A DNA stretch of 64,000 bases from a virus (taxonomy: Duplodnaviria; Caudoviricetes), in IMG/VR virus record IMGVR_UViG_3300031993_000033, positions 32,001 through 96,000 of that record; one strand, 5' to 3'. A program made the position numbers and the translations under genes. Under the pieces are notes generated by a model that saw only the letters and a list, made by a program, of their open reading frames with translations, ran no database searches and was not told the origin of the DNA. Shown one piece after another: positions 34,359 to 44,579 of the stretch (position 1 is the first letter of the stretch; each line of letters starts with the position of its first letter).

Positions 34359-34418
34359 TCTCCTTTCACTGGGAAATGCCTATTCTACGTTGCTAAATTG
34401 GCAATAAAATCAAACTTT
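34148..34418. other. invertible DNA segment bounded by perfect 16-bp inverted repeats
   Basis: AAAGTTTGATTTTATT (34148-34163) / AATAAAATCAAACTTT (34403-34418). Confidence 0.8.
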
Positions 34419-34492
34419 CGCAACAATTTGAGACTTGGCAGCAGACCATAGCAAGGCTCAGTGGGGAACTTGATGACAGAATTGCAGACTCA

Positions 34493-37449: not shown

Positions 37450-37995
37450 ATGCCTTTAAATGTTGGGTATTTAACTTGTGACCGCACGGCGGCAGGAGAT
37501 GAAGTATACACTCCCTACTATGCGGTTGATCCTCTGCTTGAGTTTATCCCAAAAGATAAGACGATTTGGTGTCCGTTTGACGAGGAATGGTCGGCGTTCT
37601 ACCAGACATTCAAGCGGGGGGGGTATGACGTAGTTAGAAGTTCTCTTGCTGAAGGTCAAGACTTCTTCAATTATGAACCTGAGAAGTGGGACATAATGAT
37701 AAGCAATCCGCCTTTTAGTAAAAAGGACGATGTGTTGCAGAGAGCTTTTGAACTCGGTAAACCTTTTGCAATCCTTCTGCCTTGCAATAGTATACAGGGC
37801 AAGAAGCGGTTTAAAATATTTCAAAACGAGATTCAGATGTTGTGCTTTGATGCAAGAATAGATTATCACACTAATGGCAATATGACTACATACACTAAGG
37901 GCAACCACTTTGGATCGGCATATTTTTGCAGAGACTTCCTTCCGAGCAAATTGGAGATGCGAGAGCTGCACAAATATGAAAAATCACTAACGTAA
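37450..37995 (+). CDS. small adenine methyltransferase-like protein
   Basis: DEVYTP, IWCPFD, GQDFF, ISNPPFS; in-frame G8 at 37616-37623. Confidence 0.8.
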   Translation: MPLNVGYLTCDRTAAGDEVYTPYYAVDPLLEFIPKDKTIWCPFDEEWSAFYQTFKRGGYDVVRSSLAEGQDFFNYEPEKWDIMISNPPFSKKDDVLQRAFELGKPFAILLPCNSIQGKKRFKIFQNEIQMLCFDARIDYHTNGNMTTYTKGNHFGSAYFCRDFLPSKLEMRELHKYEKSLT

Positions 37996-38058
37996 AATAG
38001 CCAAAAACAGGCTATAAAAACTGGATAAAATAAATCTTTTATGCGAAAGGAAGATGTA

Positions 38059-38796
38059 ATGAGTAATATACAGTTATTTCAAGGCGACTGCTTTGAGCAT
38101 CTCAAAGATTTGCCCGACAACAGCGTAGATTTAATCCTTTGTGACCTCCCCTATAAGGAGACAGGCAATAAATGGGATAGGTCATTCGATTTAGAAAGAG
38201 TGTGCCACGAGTTTGAACGTCTGATTAGAGAGGACGGTTGTATTGCTCTTACAGGCACGTTCAGGTTTGGAGTACAGTTGTTCAATCTTATGCCACACCT
38301 CTACAAATATGATTGGGTATGGGAGAAAGACAATGGAACAAATGCTCCTAATGTGAATCTTCAACCATTCAGAATACACGAGTTCGTGTTCATCTTTGGC
38401 AAGGGCAGAGTAACAAATGGCACAAGAACACCTATGAAGTATTTTCCTCAAAAGACAGATGGTACACCGTATTGCCAGAAGTCGGGCAGAATGAGCGACA
38501 ACTGGAAAGGCGGTTTAGGAACTATTGTAACAGACAATAAGGACGGCAAGCGTCACCCTAAGACAATACAGAAGTTCACAAGAGATAAAGGCGGATTTCA
38601 CCCCACACAGAAGCCAGTAGCCTTACTTGAATATCTTATTAAAACTTACACAAGAGAAGGTGACTTGGTTTTGGATTGCGTTATGGGAAGTGGTTCAACT
38701 GGTGTGGCGGCTAAAAGTCTTAACAGAGACTTCATCGGTATGGAGCTTAATGAAAAATATTTTGAGATTGCAAAAAACAGAATCGAAGCAGTCTGA
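38059..38796 (+). CDS. N4-C/N6-A DNA methyltransferase (beta class)
   Basis: GDC, DLILCDLPY, HPTQKPV.LL, VLDC.MGSGSTG. Confidence 0.9.
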   Translation: MSNIQLFQGDCFEHLKDLPDNSVDLILCDLPYKETGNKWDRSFDLERVCHEFERLIREDGCIALTGTFRFGVQLFNLMPHLYKYDWVWEKDNGTNAPNVNLQPFRIHEFVFIFGKGRVTNGTRTPMKYFPQKTDGTPYCQKSGRMSDNWKGGLGTIVTDNKDGKRHPKTIQKFTRDKGGFHPTQKPVALLEYLIKTYTREGDLVLDCVMGSGSTGVAAKSLNRDFIGMELNEKYFEIAKNRIEAV

Positions 38797-38883
38797 ATTT
38801 GCCTATTCTACGTAGGTCAAAACTGAATAAAACGGTTCTTTTATGTGATTGCAAAATAATAAATTAGTGATAAGGAGAGAAAA

Positions 38884-39747
38884 ATGAAAGTATTAAGTCT
38901 TTTTGACGGCATAAGTTGTGGAATGGTGGCACTTGAAAGGGCGGGCATTCCAGTAGAAAAATATGTTGCATATGAAATTGAGCCAAACGCTATAAAAGTA
39001 AGCGAAAAAAATTATCCTCAGATTGAGCACAAAGGAGATGTTACAACAGCGGATTTTAGAGAGTACGCAAATTTTGATTTACTTATTGGCGGTAGTCCGT
39101 GTCAGTCTTTGAGCATCGTACAGAGTAAGACAAGACAGAATCTTGATGGTAAAAGCAAATTATTTTTTGAGTTTGTAAGGGCTTTTGAAGAAATGAAGCC
39201 AAGATATTTCTTGTTTGAAAATGTGGCAAGTATGAAGGATGAATGCAAACAGGTTATATCTGAATGTTTAGGCTGTGAGCCAATCTTCATAGATAGTGCA
39301 GATTTCTCTGCTCAAAGTAGACCTCGCTATTATTGGACAAATATACCTGTAGATATGATGTATGAGAAATCTAATAAGGTTCTTGCAGATATTATGGAAA
39401 CGAATGTTGACGAAAATTTTTTCTACAATTATCCGTTGACGAATATTGATATGAGTAAACAAGTGTGTGCGATAATGGATTTTAAAAATCACGATATTCA
39501 CAAAAGAATTTTTAATCCTGCTTTTAAGTGCCATACTCTTACAACTTGTGGCGGTGGTAATACTCAAAAGAAAGTAATGGATAATGGCAGAGCAAGAAAA
39601 CTCACACCTCTTGAATATGAAAGATTACAAACGCTGCCAGATGAGTATACGAGCTGCGTTTCAAACACAGCAAGATACACAGCCATAGGTAATGGTTGGA
39701 CAGTTGATGTAATCGCTCATATTTTAAAGGGATTGGGTAACGTATAA
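38884..39747 (+). CDS. C5 cytosine DNA methyltransferase
   Basis: LSLFDG, GGSPCQ, ENV, Q.R.R, RKLTP.E.ERLQ, GNGW. Confidence 0.92.
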   Translation: MKVLSLFDGISCGMVALERAGIPVEKYVAYEIEPNAIKVSEKNYPQIEHKGDVTTADFREYANFDLLIGGSPCQSLSIVQSKTRQNLDGKSKLFFEFVRAFEEMKPRYFLFENVASMKDECKQVISECLGCEPIFIDSADFSAQSRPRYYWTNIPVDMMYEKSNKVLADIMETNVDENFFYNYPLTNIDMSKQVCAIMDFKNHDIHKRIFNPAFKCHTLTTCGGGNTQKKVMDNGRARKLTPLEYERLQTLPDEYTSCVSNTARYTAIGNGWTVDVIAHILKGLGNV

Positions 39748-39833
39748 TAGCCGAAAAGTGGCTCTATTTATCCAATAAAACTTTACTTTTATTGACTGAC
39801 AGAGTAACAAATTAGAAACAAGGAGGAATTTAA

Positions 39834-40799
39834 TTGAAGTTGACAATGATTGAATTATTTTCTGGCATAGGTGCTCAGATCAGAGGATTTAAAAACTCTG
39901 GTTTATTTGACACTGAGGTAATAGCAACATCAGAGATTGACAAAGATGCAATCGTGAGCTACGCTGCCGTTCACTGTGGACTTACACCAGAACTTATTGA
40001 GAACTATGATTATCCGCCCGTAGATGAAATGGTGGAGTACCTTGAAAGTCGTAACATTGGCTATGTCTTTGAGAAGAACAAGGCTTATGACTGGCAGAAG
40101 AAACGCAACAGTGCAGACTTAAAGAAGTATTATCTGGCATCAGTTCTTTCTAAGAATATGGGAGACATATCAAAGATAGAAGAATTGCCTTATGCAGACT
40201 TTGTAACATACTCGTTCCCATGCACCGACATCAGCATCGCTGGTCAGATTCAGGGCATTGAACGTGGTAAGACACGAAGCGGTTTGCTTTATGAAGTAGA
40301 ACGCTTACTCGCAAAGGCTAAAGAGACAGACACTCTGCCGAAGTTCTTACTTCTTGAAAATGTAAAGAATCTTGTATCACAGAGATTTAAGCCACAGTTT
40401 AATGAGTGGTGCGATTATCTCAGTGAGATTGGTTATAACACTTATTGGCAGATAGTCAATGCAAAGGATTGTGGCATACCTCAGAACCGGGAACGCGTAT
40501 TTGCTGTAAGTATACGCAAGGATGTAGACACTGGTAAGTTTGAGTTTCCACAGGCATTTGATACGGGCATACGTTTATTCCATGTTCTTGACTTTGATGT
40601 GAATGAGAAGTATATTCTCACATCTGATGCTGCTGGTAAGGCACTTGATGAGATGGCTAATAACGGCACACTCTCAGAGGAAGAAGAACTATGGAATGAG
40701 CTGTATGAGACACGCAATGACTTCCCTAATTACGGCATTATTTGCAATCAGCCTATCTATACATCTAACGATGTCACTATAGGGGGGCAGTTCCGATGA
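39834..40799 (+). CDS. C5 cytosine methyltransferase, N-terminal part (motifs I-VIII)
   Basis: ELFSGIG, SFPCTD, ENVKNL, PQNRERVF; stops just after G6 at 40782-40787. Confidence 0.88.
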   Translation: MKLTMIELFSGIGAQIRGFKNSGLFDTEVIATSEIDKDAIVSYAAVHCGLTPELIENYDYPPVDEMVEYLESRNIGYVFEKNKAYDWQKKRNSADLKKYYLASVLSKNMGDISKIEELPYADFVTYSFPCTDISIAGQIQGIERGKTRSGLLYEVERLLAKAKETDTLPKFLLLENVKNLVSQRFKPQFNEWCDYLSEIGYNTYWQIVNAKDCGIPQNRERVFAVSIRKDVDTGKFEFPQAFDTGIRLFHVLDFDVNEKYILTSDAAGKALDEMANNGTLSEEEELWNELYETRNDFPNYGIICNQPIYTSNDVTIGGQFR

Positions 40800-40895
40800 A
40801 TGACCAGAACGGATATTGTCGCACACTTAAACAGCAGTATGCTAAAACAGCTATTCAGAATTTAAAGGCACATTTGGTGCAACAGGAGTAGTTCA

Positions 40896-41039
40896 ATGGA
40901 AATAAAATATGTGGGACGAGTCCTTCCCTCTACTGGTAAGCAACATCAAAATCAAGAAGTAGCCAGTGGGGGGGGTGCAATGTGGTCACTCAAATCAACA
41001 GACTACAAAGGAGTTCCGAAAGTGTTGGTGAAAAAATGA
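40896..41039 (+). CDS. TRD-like mini-gene M1 (G8, in frame)
   Basis: MEIKYVGRVLPSTGKQHQNQEVASGGGAMWSLKSTDYKGVPKVLVKK; GGAG SD. Confidence 0.65.
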   Translation: MEIKYVGRVLPSTGKQHQNQEVASGGGAMWSLKSTDYKGVPKVLVKK

Positions 41040-41170
41040 ACGTAAAACTGCTAATGACAATGCCTAATATGTATGAACATAATGGGCGGTTGTATTCCGT
41101 AGGGGGGTATGTGTACTCTATCCACGAGAGAACACAAAGATCCCTGTAAGATACTAATAAGAAAGGTAAG
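41036..41170 (+). pseudogene. TRD-like mini-gene M2 (G6, out of frame)
   Basis: MNVKLL...RLYSVGG then shifted frame MCTLSTREHKDPCKILIRKV; G5 or G8 restores; end approximate. Confidence 0.55.
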
Positions 41171-41175
41171 TAAAG

Positions 41176-41341
41176 ATGAAAAATCAGATAAGAGTGGCGG
41201 TGGCATTGCCAACCAATTACAGTGAGCAAGGCATTGTCGTAAGCGGGGGGGGGTATTTCTAAGACAATACTTTCCAGAGATTACAAAGATGCCAAGAAGA
41301 TATTGATAAAGAGGGTTAAGAAATGCCAGACAAATACATAA
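41176..41341 (+). pseudogene. TRD-like mini-gene M3 (G9, out of frame)
   Basis: With G8 reads MKNQIRVAVALPTNYSEQGIVVSGGGISKTILSRDYKDAKKILIKRVKKCQTNT. Confidence 0.6.
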
Positions 41342-41496
41342 CCATAGGGGGGGTGGACATGACTGTGAATAAACCTTGCCCTATGCAGTATGCAAGTTGT
41401 ATTTTAACAAGATATGACAACGGAGTTAGCAATCAACAGAAAGCAAGAACTGGGGTGCTTCTAAAGAAAGTCAGAAAGGAAGATAAAAATGAGTGA
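41323..41496 (+). CDS. TRD-like mini-gene M4 (G7, in frame)
   Basis: MPDKYITIGGVDMTVNKPCPMQYASCILTRYDNGVSNQQKARTGVLLKKVRKEDKNE. Confidence 0.65.
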   Translation: MPDKYITIGGVDMTVNKPCPMQYASCILTRYDNGVSNQQKARTGVLLKKVRKEDKNE

Positions 41497-41981
41497 TGTG
41501 CACGATCTCTTATCTCCCGATGAAAGTAAAGATTACATAAGGGTAAAACAAGCTACGAAGCAAGGATATATCCTTTGTGAGAATGGTGGAGTGGCTGACC
41601 TATCCTATCCAAATTCAAAGCTGCGTCGTGGCAGAGTTCAGAGGGGGGGGGCAAACCTGCCCTACTCTCACCGCAGGTAATTGCAATATATACAGAATTG
41701 AAAGGAATGATAGTATGAACGTTGAAGATTGGGCTATCCGCAAATTAACTCCTACCGAATGTTGGAGACTGATGGGTTTTACTAATGAAGATGTAGAAAA
41801 GTGCAAGGCGGTAGGTATGAGTGATACTCAGCTCTACCGACAGGCTGGCAACAGCATCGTAACAAACTGCATTGAACTGTTAGCAGAACACCTTTATAAA
41901 GCACAGTATGATAATGACTATGAGTGTTATGACGAGAAGTTCTCCAATGTAGACAGACAGCTTGAATTTTCTTTTCAGTAA
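41489..41981 (+). CDS. module M5 plus C5 methyltransferase C-terminal part (motifs IX-X); frameshifted at G9; second start at ATG 41715
   Basis: QATKQGY..ADLSYPNSKLRRGRVQ | G9 41643-51 | QTCPTLT...IRKLTPTECWRLMGF..QLYRQAGNSIV. Confidence 0.8.
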
Positions 41982-41995
41982 CCCCTTTCACTTCC

Positions 41996-42154
41996 TTGCC
42001 AAAACTGGTGGGGGGGGTAGGAGAGAAGAATTATGGCACTCAATACCATCAGCAGCATAGAATATATAGTGGCTGTTGTGTAGGTATGTGTCATTGTTCA
42101 AATATCAGTGGAGGTAGTTATCACTACGCCTTTAAGGAGATAAAAAGTGAATGA
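41996..42154 (+). CDS. TRD-like module M6 (G8, in frame; start uncertain)
   Basis: PKLVGGVGEKNYGTQYHQQHRIYSG..GMCHCSNISGGSYHY; frame open from 41966, no clear SD. Confidence 0.5.
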   Translation: MPKLVGGVGEKNYGTQYHQQHRIYSGCCVGMCHCSNISGGSYHYAFKEIKSE

Positions 42155-42338
42155 ATTAAAACAAATAGCCGAACTCAAAATTCCACAGTGGACGGAGTGT
42201 CGGCGCAGAATATACACTACGGGGGGGGTATCTCCCACATTGAATGGCATAGGCAGAGGTGGCAACACTGAGCCTAAAATGCTTATAAGGAGCAAACATG
42301 AAGAACGAGATAAAAGTGATAGTAAATCTGCCGATTAA
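42147..42338 (+). CDS. TRD-like mini-gene M7 (G8, in frame)
   Basis: RRRIYTTGGVSPTLNGIGRGGNTEPKM; AAGGAG SD. Confidence 0.7.
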   Translation: MNELKQIAELKIPQWTECRRRIYTTGGVSPTLNGIGRGGNTEPKMLIRSKHEERDKSDSKSAD

Positions 42339-42456
42339 AGGCATGGATGTTATCAAGCGTTGTTACAGTGGGGGGGGTATTTCTCCTTCACTCACTACAA
42401 TGCAAGGTGGGCAGCGAGAACCCAAAATTTTACAACGTAGAATAGCCAAAAAGTAG
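42298..42456 (+). CDS. TRD-like mini-gene M8 (G8, in frame)
   Basis: MKNEIKVIVNLPIKGMDVIKRCYSGGGISPSLTTMQGGQREPKILQRRIAKK; AAGGAG SD. Confidence 0.7.
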   Translation: MKNEIKVIVNLPIKGMDVIKRCYSGGGISPSLTTMQGGQREPKILQRRIAKK

Positions 42457-42492
42457 CCCTAAAAAAGCAATAAAAGATTCGTTTTAAGTGAG

Positions 42493-43401
42493 GTGAGTAA
42501 TGTGATTTTCTTTCGAGAACGAGAAGATTACAACAAGGTTATCTCTGTTAAATTGGTGATTCCTTGTGGCTGTAATGCGAAGTGCCCGTTCTGCTACAAC
42601 AAAGATAAGCCTGTAGTACAATATGATATAAAAGGTTTTTTAGATAACTTTATCCCGTCTTTAGAACATCTCTTAAATGAAATAGGAGACAAGAATCCAG
42701 TATCTCTTGATATTACAGGTGGTGAGCCTACACTTGATGTCGATTTGTTATCACTTGTATTGATTAAGCTAAGAGAGTTCCACATAAAGGATAAAGTGTT
42801 GAGAGTTACTATGACAACTAATGGCACTAACCTTTATCAGATACCGATTGAGTTAATGAGAGATGTTGTGGATTATGTAAACATCTCAGTTCACGATTAT
42901 AGACAAGCAGAGCGAGAGAACATAATGCAAATTCATACGCCAGCTTTAGCCTATAAAAGAATTATCTCTCGATTAAACTCTGTTGGTATTACTGTATCGG
43001 CGGTAGCTGTTATTTTTCGTCCGATTGAAAACTTTAATCGGTGGCGAGATAATTTTATCAATTGGGCGCAGCAACAAGGTTTTATTTCAGTAAGGTTTAG
43101 ATGCGATGTATTTTGGCGTTATAAAGGTTATTTCACCAACTATATGTTTGATAGCAAAAAGGAAGATCAATTTGATATTATCAATTACGAGCATACATCT
43201 GATTCATGGTGGTGCAGATTAAGACGTAAAGACAGAATGAGAGTGTTCTTTCTGCAAGGAGTAGCAGATACCACGAAGTATACCAAAGGCATTGAATATG
43301 TCATTCACGATGACGGCAAATGTTATTGTGATTTTTACAAGAGAACGCCTATTGACAAATATGAATATGAGATAGGTAAAATTTATGATGCGATTAATTG
43401 A
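42493..43401 (+). CDS. radical SAM protein
   Basis: CNAKCPFC, ITGGEPT, TTNG. Confidence 0.88.
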   Translation: MSNVIFFREREDYNKVISVKLVIPCGCNAKCPFCYNKDKPVVQYDIKGFLDNFIPSLEHLLNEIGDKNPVSLDITGGEPTLDVDLLSLVLIKLREFHIKDKVLRVTMTTNGTNLYQIPIELMRDVVDYVNISVHDYRQAERENIMQIHTPALAYKRIISRLNSVGITVSAVAVIFRPIENFNRWRDNFINWAQQQGFISVRFRCDVFWRYKGYFTNYMFDSKKEDQFDIINYEHTSDSWWCRLRRKDRMRVFFLQGVADTTKYTKGIEYVIHDDGKCYCDFYKRTPIDKYEYEIGKIYDAIN

Positions 43402-43429
43402 TTAAACCTGTGTTTTATGAGGTGAAATA

Positions 43430-43804
43430 ATGAAAGATTTTTATGAAAGAGAAATCCAAGTGGGAGATATATGTGCTTTTTGGGACGGCGATCATCTTGA
43501 TAGTAGACGAATTTGGGGATATGAAGGCGACTCTGTTGAGATTTCAGACTATCACAAGACTTTAATTAAGAAAGCTAAAGAAGTTATAGACATTACTGCT
43601 ATCGAGAGACAGATACACTCAGAGACTTTTATCAATTCTGTAAAGACTCTTGATGTAAAACCTGATAGTACAGTGGTGGCGTCAATTATACCTAATCAAA
43701 TATCTTACACGGAAGCAACCAAAATGTTTGATGGTTTAAAGGCAATGTTTCCAAACAATGAGGTATCAATGGTTATGGGAGTTGATGTTACGGTTGAAAA
43801 TTAA
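43430..43804 (+). CDS. hypothetical protein
   Basis: GAGGTG SD; flanked by junction sites. Confidence 0.7.
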   Translation: MKDFYEREIQVGDICAFWDGDHLDSRRIWGYEGDSVEISDYHKTLIKKAKEVIDITAIERQIHSETFINSVKTLDVKPDSTVVASIIPNQISYTEATKMFDGLKAMFPNNEVSMVMGVDVTVEN

Positions 43805-43832
43805 ATTCTGCTTTTATGTGAAAGGAGACTGA

Positions 43833-44579
43833 ATGAGCAATATAGAATTATGGCAAGGCGACTGCCTTGAATTAATGGGCGGTATTCCAGATAAGAGTGT
43901 AGACTTGATTCTTTGCGATCTTCCTTATGGTACTACTAAGAATAAATGGGATAGCACCATTAATCTTGAATCTCTATGGGGGGCGTACAAACGCATCATA
44001 AAAGACAATGGTTGTATAGCACTCTTTGCTCAAACGCCATTTGATAAGGTATTAGGGGCAAGCAATCTTGATATGCTGAAGTATGAATGGATATGGGAGA
44101 AACCTATGGCTACTGGCAGATTGAATTGCAACTTTGCTCCTATGAAAGCACACGAGAATATATTAATCTTTTCCAAGAGTGCAGCTTGCTATGTCAAAGA
44201 CAAATCTCACGCAATGAAGTATTATCCTCAGATGACAGAGGGCAAACCTTATACGGCAATATCAGGTAGAGCCAGCACCAATTATGACACGAAATGGTCA
44301 AAGGAACAGTTGACAGTCAATCATGGCACACGTTATCCGAGAGATGTACAGAAGTTCACCCATGATAAAGATAAGTTCCACCCCACACAAAAGCCTGTTG
44401 CTCTGCTTGAATATCTCATTAAGACCTATACAGACGAAGGAGACTTAGTGCTTGACAATTGCATGGGTAGCGGTTCAACAGGCGTGGCAGCAAAGAACAC
44501 CAACAGAGATTTTATAGGCATAGAGCTTGATGAGAACTACTTTGAGATAGCTAAAAAGAGGATTGATGGTGAAAATTAA
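43833..44579 (+). CDS. N4-C/N6-A DNA methyltransferase (beta class), paralogue of 38059
   Basis: DLILCDLPYG, HPTQKPVALLEYLI, DNCMGSGSTG. Confidence 0.92.
   Translation: MSNIELWQGDCLELMGGIPDKSVDLILCDLPYGTTKNKWDSTINLESLWGAYKRIIKDNGCIALFAQTPFDKVLGASNLDMLKYEWIWEKPMATGRLNCNFAPMKAHENILIFSKSAACYVKDKSHAMKYYPQMTEGKPYTAISGRASTNYDTKWSKEQLTVNHGTRYPRDVQKFTHDKDKFHPTQKPVALLEYLIKTYTDEGDLVLDNCMGSGSTGVAAKNTNRDFIGIELDENYFEIAKKRIDGEN

What the first reader, a model, noticed from the sequence alone, without database searches (positions are those of the whole stretch)
39834..42456. Split C5 methyltransferase with nine TRD-like modules, each carrying a poly-G tract
Seen: nine G-runs in 1.6 kb: G6 40782, G8 40968, G6 41102, G9 41245, G7 41347, G9 41643, G8 42010, G8 42221, G8 42370. 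Each lies within a 45-65-codon module. M1-M5, M7 and M8 have their own SD and start, overlapping the previous module, so this does not look like random decay. Five are in frame (M1, M4, M6, M7, M8) and four out (M0, M2, M3, M5); the four are repaired at the run by changing only the G count to 7 or 8 (M0 has a second shift). The peptides carry TL-type motifs (CRTLK, CTLST, SKTIL, CPTLT, SPTLN, SPSLT), and M7 resembles the variable region of the intact neighbour at 38884 (KRIFNPAFKCHTLTTCGGGNTQKKV). Known: Bacillus phage multispecific C5 MTases (SPR, phi3T) carry tandem TRDs within one polypeptide, and poly-G slippage phase-varies bacterial mod genes. Inference: TRDs are supplied as separate plug-in peptides, each switched by slippage, giving up to 2^9 methylation states as an anti-restriction bet-hedge.
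Basis: partly seen in the sequence, partly recalled or inferred. Interest (0 to 1): 0.92.

Follow-up and report, generated by a model that had tools for sequence, protein, structure and literature searches.

The report
Poly-G-switched recognition modules of phage methyltransferase
A 105-kb rumen-type phage has its DNA cytosine methyltransferase cut into a catalytic piece, a small closing piece and about nine tiny DNA-reading modules, each with a slippery run of G whose length differs between near-identical phages, so each methylation specificity is probably switched on or off separately.

Summary
All nine G-runs are at the stated coordinates. The whole 104.7-kb phage genome has only 11 G/C runs of 6 or more, and all lie in methyltransferase genes.

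The locus is a split C5 methyltransferase:
- **Alpha:** motifs I-VIII.
- **Beta:** motifs IX-X, with its own start codon.
- **Nine TRD modules:** M0 fuses to alpha when ON, M5 fuses to beta when ON, and seven are free mini-ORFs.

No combination of run lengths can give one continuous protein. About a dozen related metagenome contigs keep the same layout, but run lengths differ at almost every tract. One module occurs in databases with inferred runs of G5 to G11. Both halves of the free modules are under purifying selection (dN/dS 0.10-0.29). Some relatives break a tract with a synonymous change and keep the peptide.

Slippage-driven phase variation of individual specificities is therefore well supported. 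Whether free TRD peptides dock on the alpha/beta core is inferred, not shown.

I found no published description in the library searched. Earlier AI notes of this scan report the same kind of array in at least eight other phage genomes.

The parts
39834..40799 (+). Alpha piece. C5 methyltransferase motifs I-VIII plus the N-half of TRD module M0. G6 tract at 40782-40787, OFF here; G7 would read on into M0.
   Evidence: PF00145 E 3.9e-48, profile positions 30-195. Strong AGGAGG ribosome-binding site. ON-state 359-361-aa homologues P0021, P0026 and P0036.
40790..40905 (+). M0 C-half (CRTLK-type TRD). In this genome it is also broken by a 7-bp deletion near 40862.
   Evidence: Alignment with L001. 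A homologous TRD directly precedes motif IX in the continuous relative P0046. Versus L018, 5 of 14 synonymous sites and 0 of 58 nonsynonymous sites differ.
40896..41039 (+). M1, a free TRD mini-ORF of 47 aa. G8 tract at 40968-40975, ON.
   Evidence: AGGAG ribosome-binding site. L027 has G6 at the same tract.
41036..41225 (+). M2, a free TRD module. G6 tract at 41102-41107, OFF; ON needs G8.
   Evidence: Relatives have G8, G8, G9, G8. The intact ORF is seen in L016 and L027.
41176..41341 (+). M3, a free TRD module. G9 tract at 41245-41253, OFF; ON needs G8.
   Evidence: L027 has G7. The module is replaced by an unrelated one in L001 and L016.
41323..41496 (+). M4, a free TRD mini-ORF of 57 aa. 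G7 tract at 41347-41353, ON.
   Evidence: Versus L016, 9 of 34 synonymous sites and 1 of 137 nonsynonymous sites differ. In L016 and L018 the tract is broken by a synonymous GGG-to-GGT change with the peptide unchanged.
41489..41714 (+). M5, a TRD that fuses to the motif IX-X piece when ON. G9 tract at 41643-41651, OFF; ON needs G8.
   Evidence: Fused ON forms of 152-163 aa: P0141 (82 member sequences), P0142, P0145. Relatives have G7, G7, G6, G6.
41715..41981 (+). Beta piece. Motifs IX-X, 88 aa, with its own AGGA ribosome-binding site and ATG.
   Evidence: PF00145 profile positions 261-323. The start codon is conserved in all split relatives and absent in the continuous relatives L002 and P0046.
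41996..42154 (+). M6, a TRD-like module after the beta stop codon. G8 tract at 42010-42017, near its start. The start codon is uncertain and there is no ribosome-binding site.
   Evidence: L027 has G9.
42147..42338 (+). M7, a free TRD mini-ORF of 63 aa with a GTG start. G8 tract at 42221-42228, ON.
   Evidence: Homologous free 63-aa protein P0392.
42298..42456 (+). M8, a free TRD mini-ORF of 52 aa. G8 tract at 42370-42377, ON.
   Evidence: Twenty database clusters show the same N-half followed by all three reading frames. 48% identity to the TRD region of the continuous L002 enzyme.

Best explanation
This is a multispecific C5 DNA methyltransferase of a large (SPbeta-like, per earlier scan notes; not tested here), probably Lachnospiraceae-infecting rumen phage. 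It has been taken apart into separately translated pieces.

**Constant parts.** Alpha carries motifs I-VIII. Beta carries motifs IX-X and has its own start codon.

**Variable parts.** Each 45-65-aa target-recognition module carries a G6-G9 tract encoding Gly-Gly(-Gly) just upstream of its recognition loop. Replication slippage changes tract length and shifts the frame, so each module is independently ON or OFF in a given genome.
- M0 joins alpha when ON.
- M5 joins beta when ON.
- The other seven modules are free peptides.

**Shown here.** The anatomy, the tract-length variation between close relatives, the protein-level selection, and the impossibility of a single polypeptide.

**Inferred.**
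- Free modules dock non-covalently on the alpha/beta core and each adds one methylation specificity.
- The resulting mixed population hedges between hosts whose restriction enzymes cut unmethylated sites and hosts whose Type IV enzymes cut methylated sites.
For: 1. **Tract distribution.** G/C runs of 6 or more are confined to methyltransferase genes in the whole genome and use the rarest Gly codon.
2. **Same layout, different run lengths.** About a dozen contigs from several metagenomes share the layout.
   - L027 is 96% identical over 2 kb, and 8 of its 9 indels against the window are at G-runs.
   - The M0 tract is 6,7,5,6,7,6,6,7,7,6 across ten contigs.
3. **M8 in all three frames.** M8 homologues from 20 database clusters show ON, +1 and -1 reading after the tract. 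This implies G5 to G11.
4. **ON forms exist for the OFF modules.** Alpha+M0 at 359 aa (P0021, 133 members) and M5+beta at 160 aa (P0141, 82 members).
5. **Purifying selection.** Pooled dN/dS of free modules in the predicted frames is 0.10-0.29 (Fisher p from 1e-12 to 3e-4). Alternative frames give about 0.9-2.8. The core-linked parts give 0.02-0.08.
6. **No single polypeptide.** In 7 of 8 inter-tract segments every frame has a stop. In L024 and L023 this holds for all 8.
7. **Own start codons.** Every module and beta start with a start codon at the same structural position. Continuous relatives have no start codon there.
8. **Tract is dispensable.** Free modules without a usable tract exist.
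   - A synonymous GGG-to-GGT change in M4 of L016 and L018.
   - P0007, P0313 and P0405.
9. **TRD-only proteins elsewhere.** Proteins with 1, 2 or 5 TRDs and no catalytic motifs occur in other clusters. There are 2,124 clusters at E of 0.001 or better.
10. **No internal terminator.** No terminator-like site lies inside 39834-42456.
11. **Precedent.** Natural two-polypeptide C5 methyltransferases and fragment complementation across the variable region are established (PMC3404938).
Against: - No direct evidence shows that a free TRD peptide binds the core or changes specificity.
- No natural three-piece C5 methyltransferase was found in the papers searched or is known to me.
- M2, M3 and M6 lack a recognisable ribosome-binding site.
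- M5 is OFF in all five contigs where its tract could be compared. ON forms do exist in the protein database.
- ON states are not clearly enriched over one third. For M8, 6 of 18 clusters are ON.
- Within-population tract heterogeneity could not be measured.
- A few frameshifts lie outside G-runs: the 7-bp deletion in M0 here, and one in the alternative M3 of L016 and L020. So some decay also occurs.
Confidence: 0.6

Rival explanations
1. Silent-cassette reservoir. Only the TRD fused to alpha (M0 slot) or to beta (M5 slot) is ever used. The free modules are spare parts that recombination moves into those slots.
For: Module content is mosaic between relatives. M1, M3, M6 and M7 are replaced and M2 is hybrid in L016. 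P0020 joins the N-half of one module to the C-half of M8 at the G tract.
Against: Silent cassettes would not need their own conserved start codons and ribosome-binding sites. They would not need their own frame-switching tracts. Nor would the peptide be preserved when a tract is broken by a synonymous change. The fused-slot modules (M0, M5) are of different TRD types from most free modules, and no contig shows a free-type module in either slot.
Confidence: 0.12
2. Recoding stitches the pieces together. Ribosomal frameshifting or transcriptional slippage at module junctions or G tracts makes a multi-TRD polyprotein from the apparently separate ORFs.
For: The M1/M2 junction has an A-rich stretch before an ATGA stop-start overlap. 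G runs could in principle allow slippage by RNA polymerase or ribosomes.
Against: The required shifts differ in direction at successive junctions (-1, -1, +1, -1, +1). No shared slippery heptamer is present, by direct reading. Stop codons of all three kinds end the modules, and overlaps range from 4 to about 60 nt. Every frame is closed in nearly every inter-tract segment.
Confidence: 0.08
3. Free TRD peptides are made but act as modulators. For example, they compete with M0 or M5 for the core or for DNA, rather than acting as specificity subunits.
For: It explains translation signals and purifying selection equally well. AlphaFold2 gives no confident autonomous fold for M8 alone (pLDDT 52).
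Against: The modules are full-length homologues of TRDs that confer specificity in continuous enzymes. A beta piece with its own start codon is exactly what independent TRD use requires.
Confidence: 0.1
4. Decay or artefact. The array is a degenerating multispecific gene, or the frameshifts are homopolymer sequencing errors in one continuous gene.
For: Homopolymers are error-prone. M0 here has a genuine 7-bp deletion.
Against: - A continuous ORF is impossible whatever the run lengths.
- The layout is conserved from 75 to 100% identity across many assemblies.
- dN/dS is 0.10-0.29 on both sides of the tracts.
- Tract lengths span G5-G11, not plus or minus 1.
- A and T runs of 6-8 elsewhere do not break the long ORFs.
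Confidence: 0.04

Closest known systems
Multispecific C5 DNA methyltransferases of Bacillus SPbeta-group phages (M.SPRI, M.Phi3TI, M.Rho11sI, M.H2I; Trautner laboratory; own knowledge, cited in PMC8936443)
   Same: One catalytic core serves several tandem, exchangeable TRDs of about 50 aa between motifs VIII and IX. It is phage-borne and thought to protect against several host restriction systems. A continuous 555-aa relative with four or more TRDs exists at 58% identity (L002).
   Different: Here the TRDs are not in one polypeptide. Each has its own start and stop codon and a hypermutable G tract, and three modules lie after motif X.
Two-polypeptide C5 methyltransferases M.AquI and M.EcoHK31I, and engineered fragment complementation of M.SssI and M.HhaI (PMC3404938, PMC2836561)
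   Same: The enzyme is split in or next to the variable region into separately translated subunits that must assemble. Alpha carries motifs I-VIII. M5-beta (TRD + IX + X) resembles the M.AquI small subunit.
   Different: The known cases have two fixed pieces and one specificity. Here there are up to about ten pieces, seven of them bare TRDs without any conserved motif.
Simple-sequence-repeat phase-variable methyltransferases (phasevarions: Type III mod, Type I hsdS/hsdM, Type IIG cj0031; PMC7383803, PMC4889913)
   Same: A homopolymer or short repeat inside the ORF shifts the frame by slippage and gives reversible ON/OFF methylation.
   Different: Those switch a whole enzyme or one specificity subunit of a bacterial adenine methyltransferase. 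Here many tracts switch individual TRDs of one phage cytosine methyltransferase.
Poly-G and contingency tracts in phage genes (Fletchervirus receptor-binding proteins, Sorensen 2021; a BPP-1 methylase gene; T2/T4 contingency loci, bioRxiv 10.1101/2025.10.21.683753)
   Same: Hypermutable homopolymers in phage genes create mixed populations as a bet-hedge.
   Different: Those are single tracts in ordinary full-length genes. None describes an array of tract-bearing specificity modules.
Shuffling Type I hsdS loci (for example S. pneumoniae SpnD39III; PMC4948785)
   Same: Combinatorial change of methylation specificity from a set of TRD cassettes serving one catalytic machinery.
   Different: The mechanism there is site-specific inversion, giving mutually exclusive alleles. 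Here it is independent frameshift switches, so several specificities can be ON together.

Membership tests
C5 cytosine DNA methyltransferase (PF00145) | Motifs I (FxGxG), IV (PC), VI (ENV) and VIII (QxRxR) in order | tested here: met
   FSGIG, FPCTD, LENV and QNRER are read in ORF 39834-40799. PF00145 E 3.9e-48.
C5 cytosine DNA methyltransferase (PF00145) | Motifs IX and X present | tested here: met
   RKLTP..RLMGF and AGNS are in ORF 41715-41981. PF00145 profile positions 261-323, E 3.7e-09. They are encoded on a separate ORF.
Multispecific C5 methyltransferases (SPR/phi3T type) | Several TRDs in tandem, homologous to TRDs of other enzymes | tested here: met
   M8 matches L002 residues 393-423 at 48% identity. 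M7 matches the neighbour's variable region. M0 is homologous to the last TRD of P0046. The module profile hits 2,124 clusters, many with 2-6 copies per protein.
Multispecific C5 methyltransferases (SPR/phi3T type) | All TRDs and the core lie in one polypeptide | tested here: not met
   Stops occur in every frame between tracts in the window, L027, L024 and L023.
Multispecific C5 methyltransferases (SPR/phi3T type) | Each TRD confers its own target sequence | not testable with these tools
   This needs methylome reading after expression.
Heteromeric C5 methyltransferases (M.AquI type) | Large subunit with motifs I-VIII and small subunit with TRD part + IX-X as separate translation products | tested here: met
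   Alpha forms of 320-361 aa and M5-beta forms of 152-163 aa are called as separate proteins in many assemblies.
Heteromeric C5 methyltransferases (M.AquI type) | Subunits assemble and both are needed for activity | not testable with these tools
A biochemical test is needed.
Simple-sequence contingency locus (phase variation) | Homopolymer tract inside the coding sequence whose length sets the frame | tested here: met
Simple-sequence contingency locus (phase variation) | Tract length varies among otherwise near-identical genomes and yields both ON and OFF alleles | tested here: met
Simple-sequence contingency locus (phase variation) | High-frequency reversible switching within one population | not testable with these tools

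The most novel reading that the evidence does not exclude
Bare 45-65-aa TRD peptides act as exchangeable, non-covalent specificity subunits of a shared alpha/beta C5-methyltransferase core. Each is under its own mutational switch. This would give a cytosine methyltransferase a Type-I-like separate specificity subunit and give a phage population a combinatorial, heritable set of methylation patterns.
Probability: 0.5. Interest if true: 0.9.

Novelty: new variant of a known kind. Interest (0 to 1): 0.8.

Why it matters
- **Enzyme architecture.** If the free modules work in trans, DNA recognition in C5 methyltransferases can be supplied by a tiny detachable peptide. That would be a new architecture and a possible tool for programmable methylation.
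- **Phage strategy.** It would show a phage using many independent contingency switches to diversify its epigenetic coat against restriction and methyl-dependent restriction.
- **Annotation.** The free mini-ORFs got no Pfam family. Gene callers report the alpha and beta pieces as stand-alone C5 methylase proteins of 137-361 aa.
- **How common it is.** The module profile hits more than 2,000 protein clusters, some of them TRD-only proteins. The phenomenon may therefore be common in gut and rumen phages.

Tried and rejected
The alpha + beta + M8 job, with alignments A3, A1 and A2 prepared, was not run.

**Searches that gave nothing useful**
- AlphaFold2 of M8 alone gave pLDDT 52, with only the terminal strands paired. 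This is too poor for a fold search.
- The module profile found nothing significant in the Protein Data Bank by sequence.
- blastn against deposited phages found nothing. tblastn found only relatives below 45% identity.

**Ideas considered and dropped**
- A continuous ORF via some set of run lengths is impossible.
- Stop-codon reassignment does not fit, because TAA, TAG and TGA all end modules and the frames differ.
- A systematic 'OFF state runs on into the next module' design is true only for M1 into M2.
- Programmed frameshift sites at the junctions are not supported. There is no common slippery motif and the shift directions are mixed.

**Method caveat**
- My automatic ON/OFF caller mis-assigned frames for M1, M4 and M6. 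The states given here are from manual reading and flank-anchored comparison.
Full report
**Observation**

The window is bases 32001-96000 of a complete 104,704-bp IMG/VR virus record with direct terminal repeats.

They are not a chance feature:
- The whole genome holds only 11 G/C runs of 6 or more. All are G on the + strand and all lie between window 37616 and 43978.
- Nine are in the 1.6-kb array. One is in an EcoRI-methylase-like gene and one in an N6/N4 methylase gene.
- Shuffles of the genome give a mean of 9.7 such runs and 0.38 of length 8 or more. Seven of length 8 or more are observed.
- The rest of the genome is depleted of these runs and the methyltransferase island is loaded with them.
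- GGG is the rarest glycine codon in eight long non-methyltransferase ORFs (22 of 278). None of their 12 Gly-Gly pairs is GGG-GGG. Every module, however, spells its Gly-Gly(-Gly) with G only.

**Anatomy**

ORF 39834-40799 carries C5-methyltransferase motifs I-VIII (PF00145, E 3.9e-48). ORF 41715-41981 carries motifs IX-X.

Between and after them lie nine units of 45-65 codons (coordinates checked). Each has an N-half, a G tract and a C-half with a T-L-type recognition motif.

They are TRD homologues:
- M8 aligns with residues 393-423 of the variable region of a continuous 555-aa relative (48% identity, E 9e-10).
- M7 aligns collinearly with the variable region of the neighbouring intact methyltransferase.
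- M0 is homologous to the last TRD of a continuous 453-aa relative, where that TRD runs straight into motif IX (P0046).

In this genome M1, M4, M7 and M8 are in frame, and so is M6 if it starts at TTG 41996. M0, M2, M3 and M5 are out of frame and would be restored by G7, G8, G8 and G8. M0 also has a 7-bp deletion that relatives lack.

Ribosome-binding sites are strong for alpha, M1, M7 and M8. They are moderate for M4, M5 and beta, and not evident for M2, M3 and M6. No terminator-like site lies inside the array.

**Relatives**

Thirteen metagenome loci and two viral contigs encode the alpha piece at 74-100% identity, and about a dozen of them reach into the array. They show the same fragmented layout with G tracts at homologous sites.

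Tract lengths differ almost everywhere:
- L027 is 96% identical to the window over 2 kb. Its tracts are 7,6,8,7,6,7,9,8,7 against 6,8,6,9,7,9,8,8,8 here. Eight of the nine indels between the two are at tracts.
- The M0 tract reads 6,7,5,6,7,6,6,7,7,6 in ten contigs.
- L001 has an alpha piece identical in protein, with 3 synonymous differences in 945 nt, yet already differs at the M0 tract.

In the protein database, 20 clusters from independent assemblies carry the M8 N-half followed by each of the three possible frames. This includes in-frame forms with two, three or four glycines, implying tracts from G5 to G11.

ON forms of the modules that are OFF here exist:
- Alpha+M0 of 356-361 aa (P0021, 133 member sequences).
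- M5+beta of 152-163 aa (P0141, 82 member sequences).

Tracts can also be lost without loss of the ORF:
- M4 in L016 and L018 has a synonymous GGG-to-GGT change.
- P0007, P0313, P0405 and P0149 have no usable tract.

Module content also turns over. M1, M3, M6 and M7 are replaced by other alleles in L001 and L016. L018 lacks M3. L023 has five modules after beta, two of them with the tract at the second Gly-Gly site.

A contig 96% identical in alpha is binned in a rumen Lachnospiraceae MAG (L109). This is the only hint to the host.

**Are the mini-ORFs real genes?**

Nei-Gojobori counts between the window and relatives show purifying selection in the predicted frames on both sides of the tracts.
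- For the seven free modules, pooled dN/dS is 0.14 (L016), 0.29 (L024), 0.22 (L017), 0.20 (L018), 0.15 (L023) and 0.10 (L027).
- Fisher p ranges from 1e-12 to 3e-4.
- The two alternative frames give about 0.9-2.8.
- The core-linked parts give 0.02-0.08.

So the two halves of each module are kept as protein although they are often out of frame with each other. This is what a reversible switch predicts and what decay does not.

**Can the pieces be joined?**

They cannot. In the window every reading frame has a stop in 7 of the 8 inter-tract segments. In L024 and L023 this holds for all 8. No set of tract lengths gives one polypeptide.

Module ends use TAA, TAG and TGA. Overlaps with the next start range from 4 to about 60 nt. 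The frame changes needed at successive junctions differ in direction. Stop-codon reassignment or a common programmed frameshift is therefore unlikely.

The split is a clade feature. Alpha homologues at 69% identity or more are 295-361 aa. Those at 70% or less are mostly continuous enzymes of 417-560 aa without tracts.

The alpha stop and the beta start sit exactly at the TRD/motif IX boundary of the continuous relatives. The beta start codon is present in all split relatives and absent in the continuous ones.

In the G7/G10 state of M5, the out-of-frame reading ends in a TGA that overlaps the beta ATG. In the G6/G9 state it ends 35 nt upstream. Beta can therefore be made in every state (read).

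**Mechanism proposed**

*Shown:* a split enzyme, with tract-length polymorphism that toggles each module's frame.

*Inferred with good support:* alpha and beta assemble as in M.AquI, with M0 or M5 covalently attached when ON.

*Inferred with moderate support:* the seven free modules dock on the same core and each adds a specificity.

The logic is as follows. In a single polypeptide, any OFF tract would kill everything downstream. Independent switching requires exactly what is seen: a separate start for every module and for beta.

Supporting context:
- The module profile hits 2,124 clusters. These include stand-alone proteins with one, two or five TRDs and no catalytic motifs (P0313, P0263, P0268, P0265).
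- A simpler version, one continuous-type enzyme broken only by two G7 tracts, occurs in a distant relative (L105).
- C5 methyltransferases tolerate bisection in the variable region (PMC3404938).

The biological reading is my inference from established knowledge of Type II and Type IV restriction. Under it, the phage hedges between protection from Type II restriction and avoidance of methyl-dependent Type IV restriction, or alters lysogen epigenetics.

**What is known**

The library searched describes:
- multispecific phage methyltransferases;
- two-subunit C5 methyltransferases;
- repeat-driven phase-variable bacterial methyltransferases;
- poly-G or contingency tracts in a few phage genes.

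I found no description of an array of tract-bearing free TRD genes.

Earlier AI notes of this scan report the same kind of array in at least eight other phage genomes. I did not check those notes and they are not independent evidence.

**Limits**

Three tools could not be used: read mapping, contig look-up and complex prediction. AlphaFold2 of M8 alone was uninformative. Binding of free modules, their specificities and the switching rate remain untested.

Noticed in passing
window 37450-37995 (G8 at 37616): An EcoRI-methylase-like gene (PF13651) also carries a G8 tract, in frame here. Homologues in L016 and L022 have G7 and G9 at the same place, so it is probably another switch.
   Followed up: partly
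window 43833-44579 (G6 at 43978): An N6/N4 DNA methylase gene holds the only other G run of 6 or more in the genome. In related phages L040 and L032, G7-G8 tracts sit in the glycine-rich motif I of neighbouring methylase genes.
   Followed up: partly
L001:4586 (also L003, L024:2586) versus window 34374-34419: Relatives have a G7 tract at the start of a PP-loop/PAPS-reductase-like gene. The window instead shows a 46-nt perfectly matching segment in inverted orientation there. The same DNA-modification gene may be switched by different means in sister phages.
   Followed up: no
L105:3150-3700: A C5 methyltransferase at 38% identity is broken only by two G7 tracts (3325, 3571), with no separate starts. 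It looks like a simple all-or-none version of the same idea.
   Followed up: partly
window 40862 (M0 C-half): A 7-bp deletion relative to all relatives truncates M0 independently of its tract, so M0 is probably dead in this genome.
   Followed up: yes
proteins P0020 and P0265: P0020 joins the N-half of an alternative M3 module to the C-half of M8 exactly at the G tract. This is either recombination or an assembly chimera. P0265 is a 297-aa protein of five TRDs with a helix-turn-helix-like insert and no PF00145 match.
   Followed up: no
window 42493-43401: A radical SAM enzyme gene directly follows the array inside the DNA-modification island. Its role is unknown.
   Followed up: no
whole genome outside window 37616-43978: There is no G or C run of 6 or more in about 98 kb, where shuffles predict about nine. 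This suggests selection against such tracts outside the methylase genes.
   Followed up: partly
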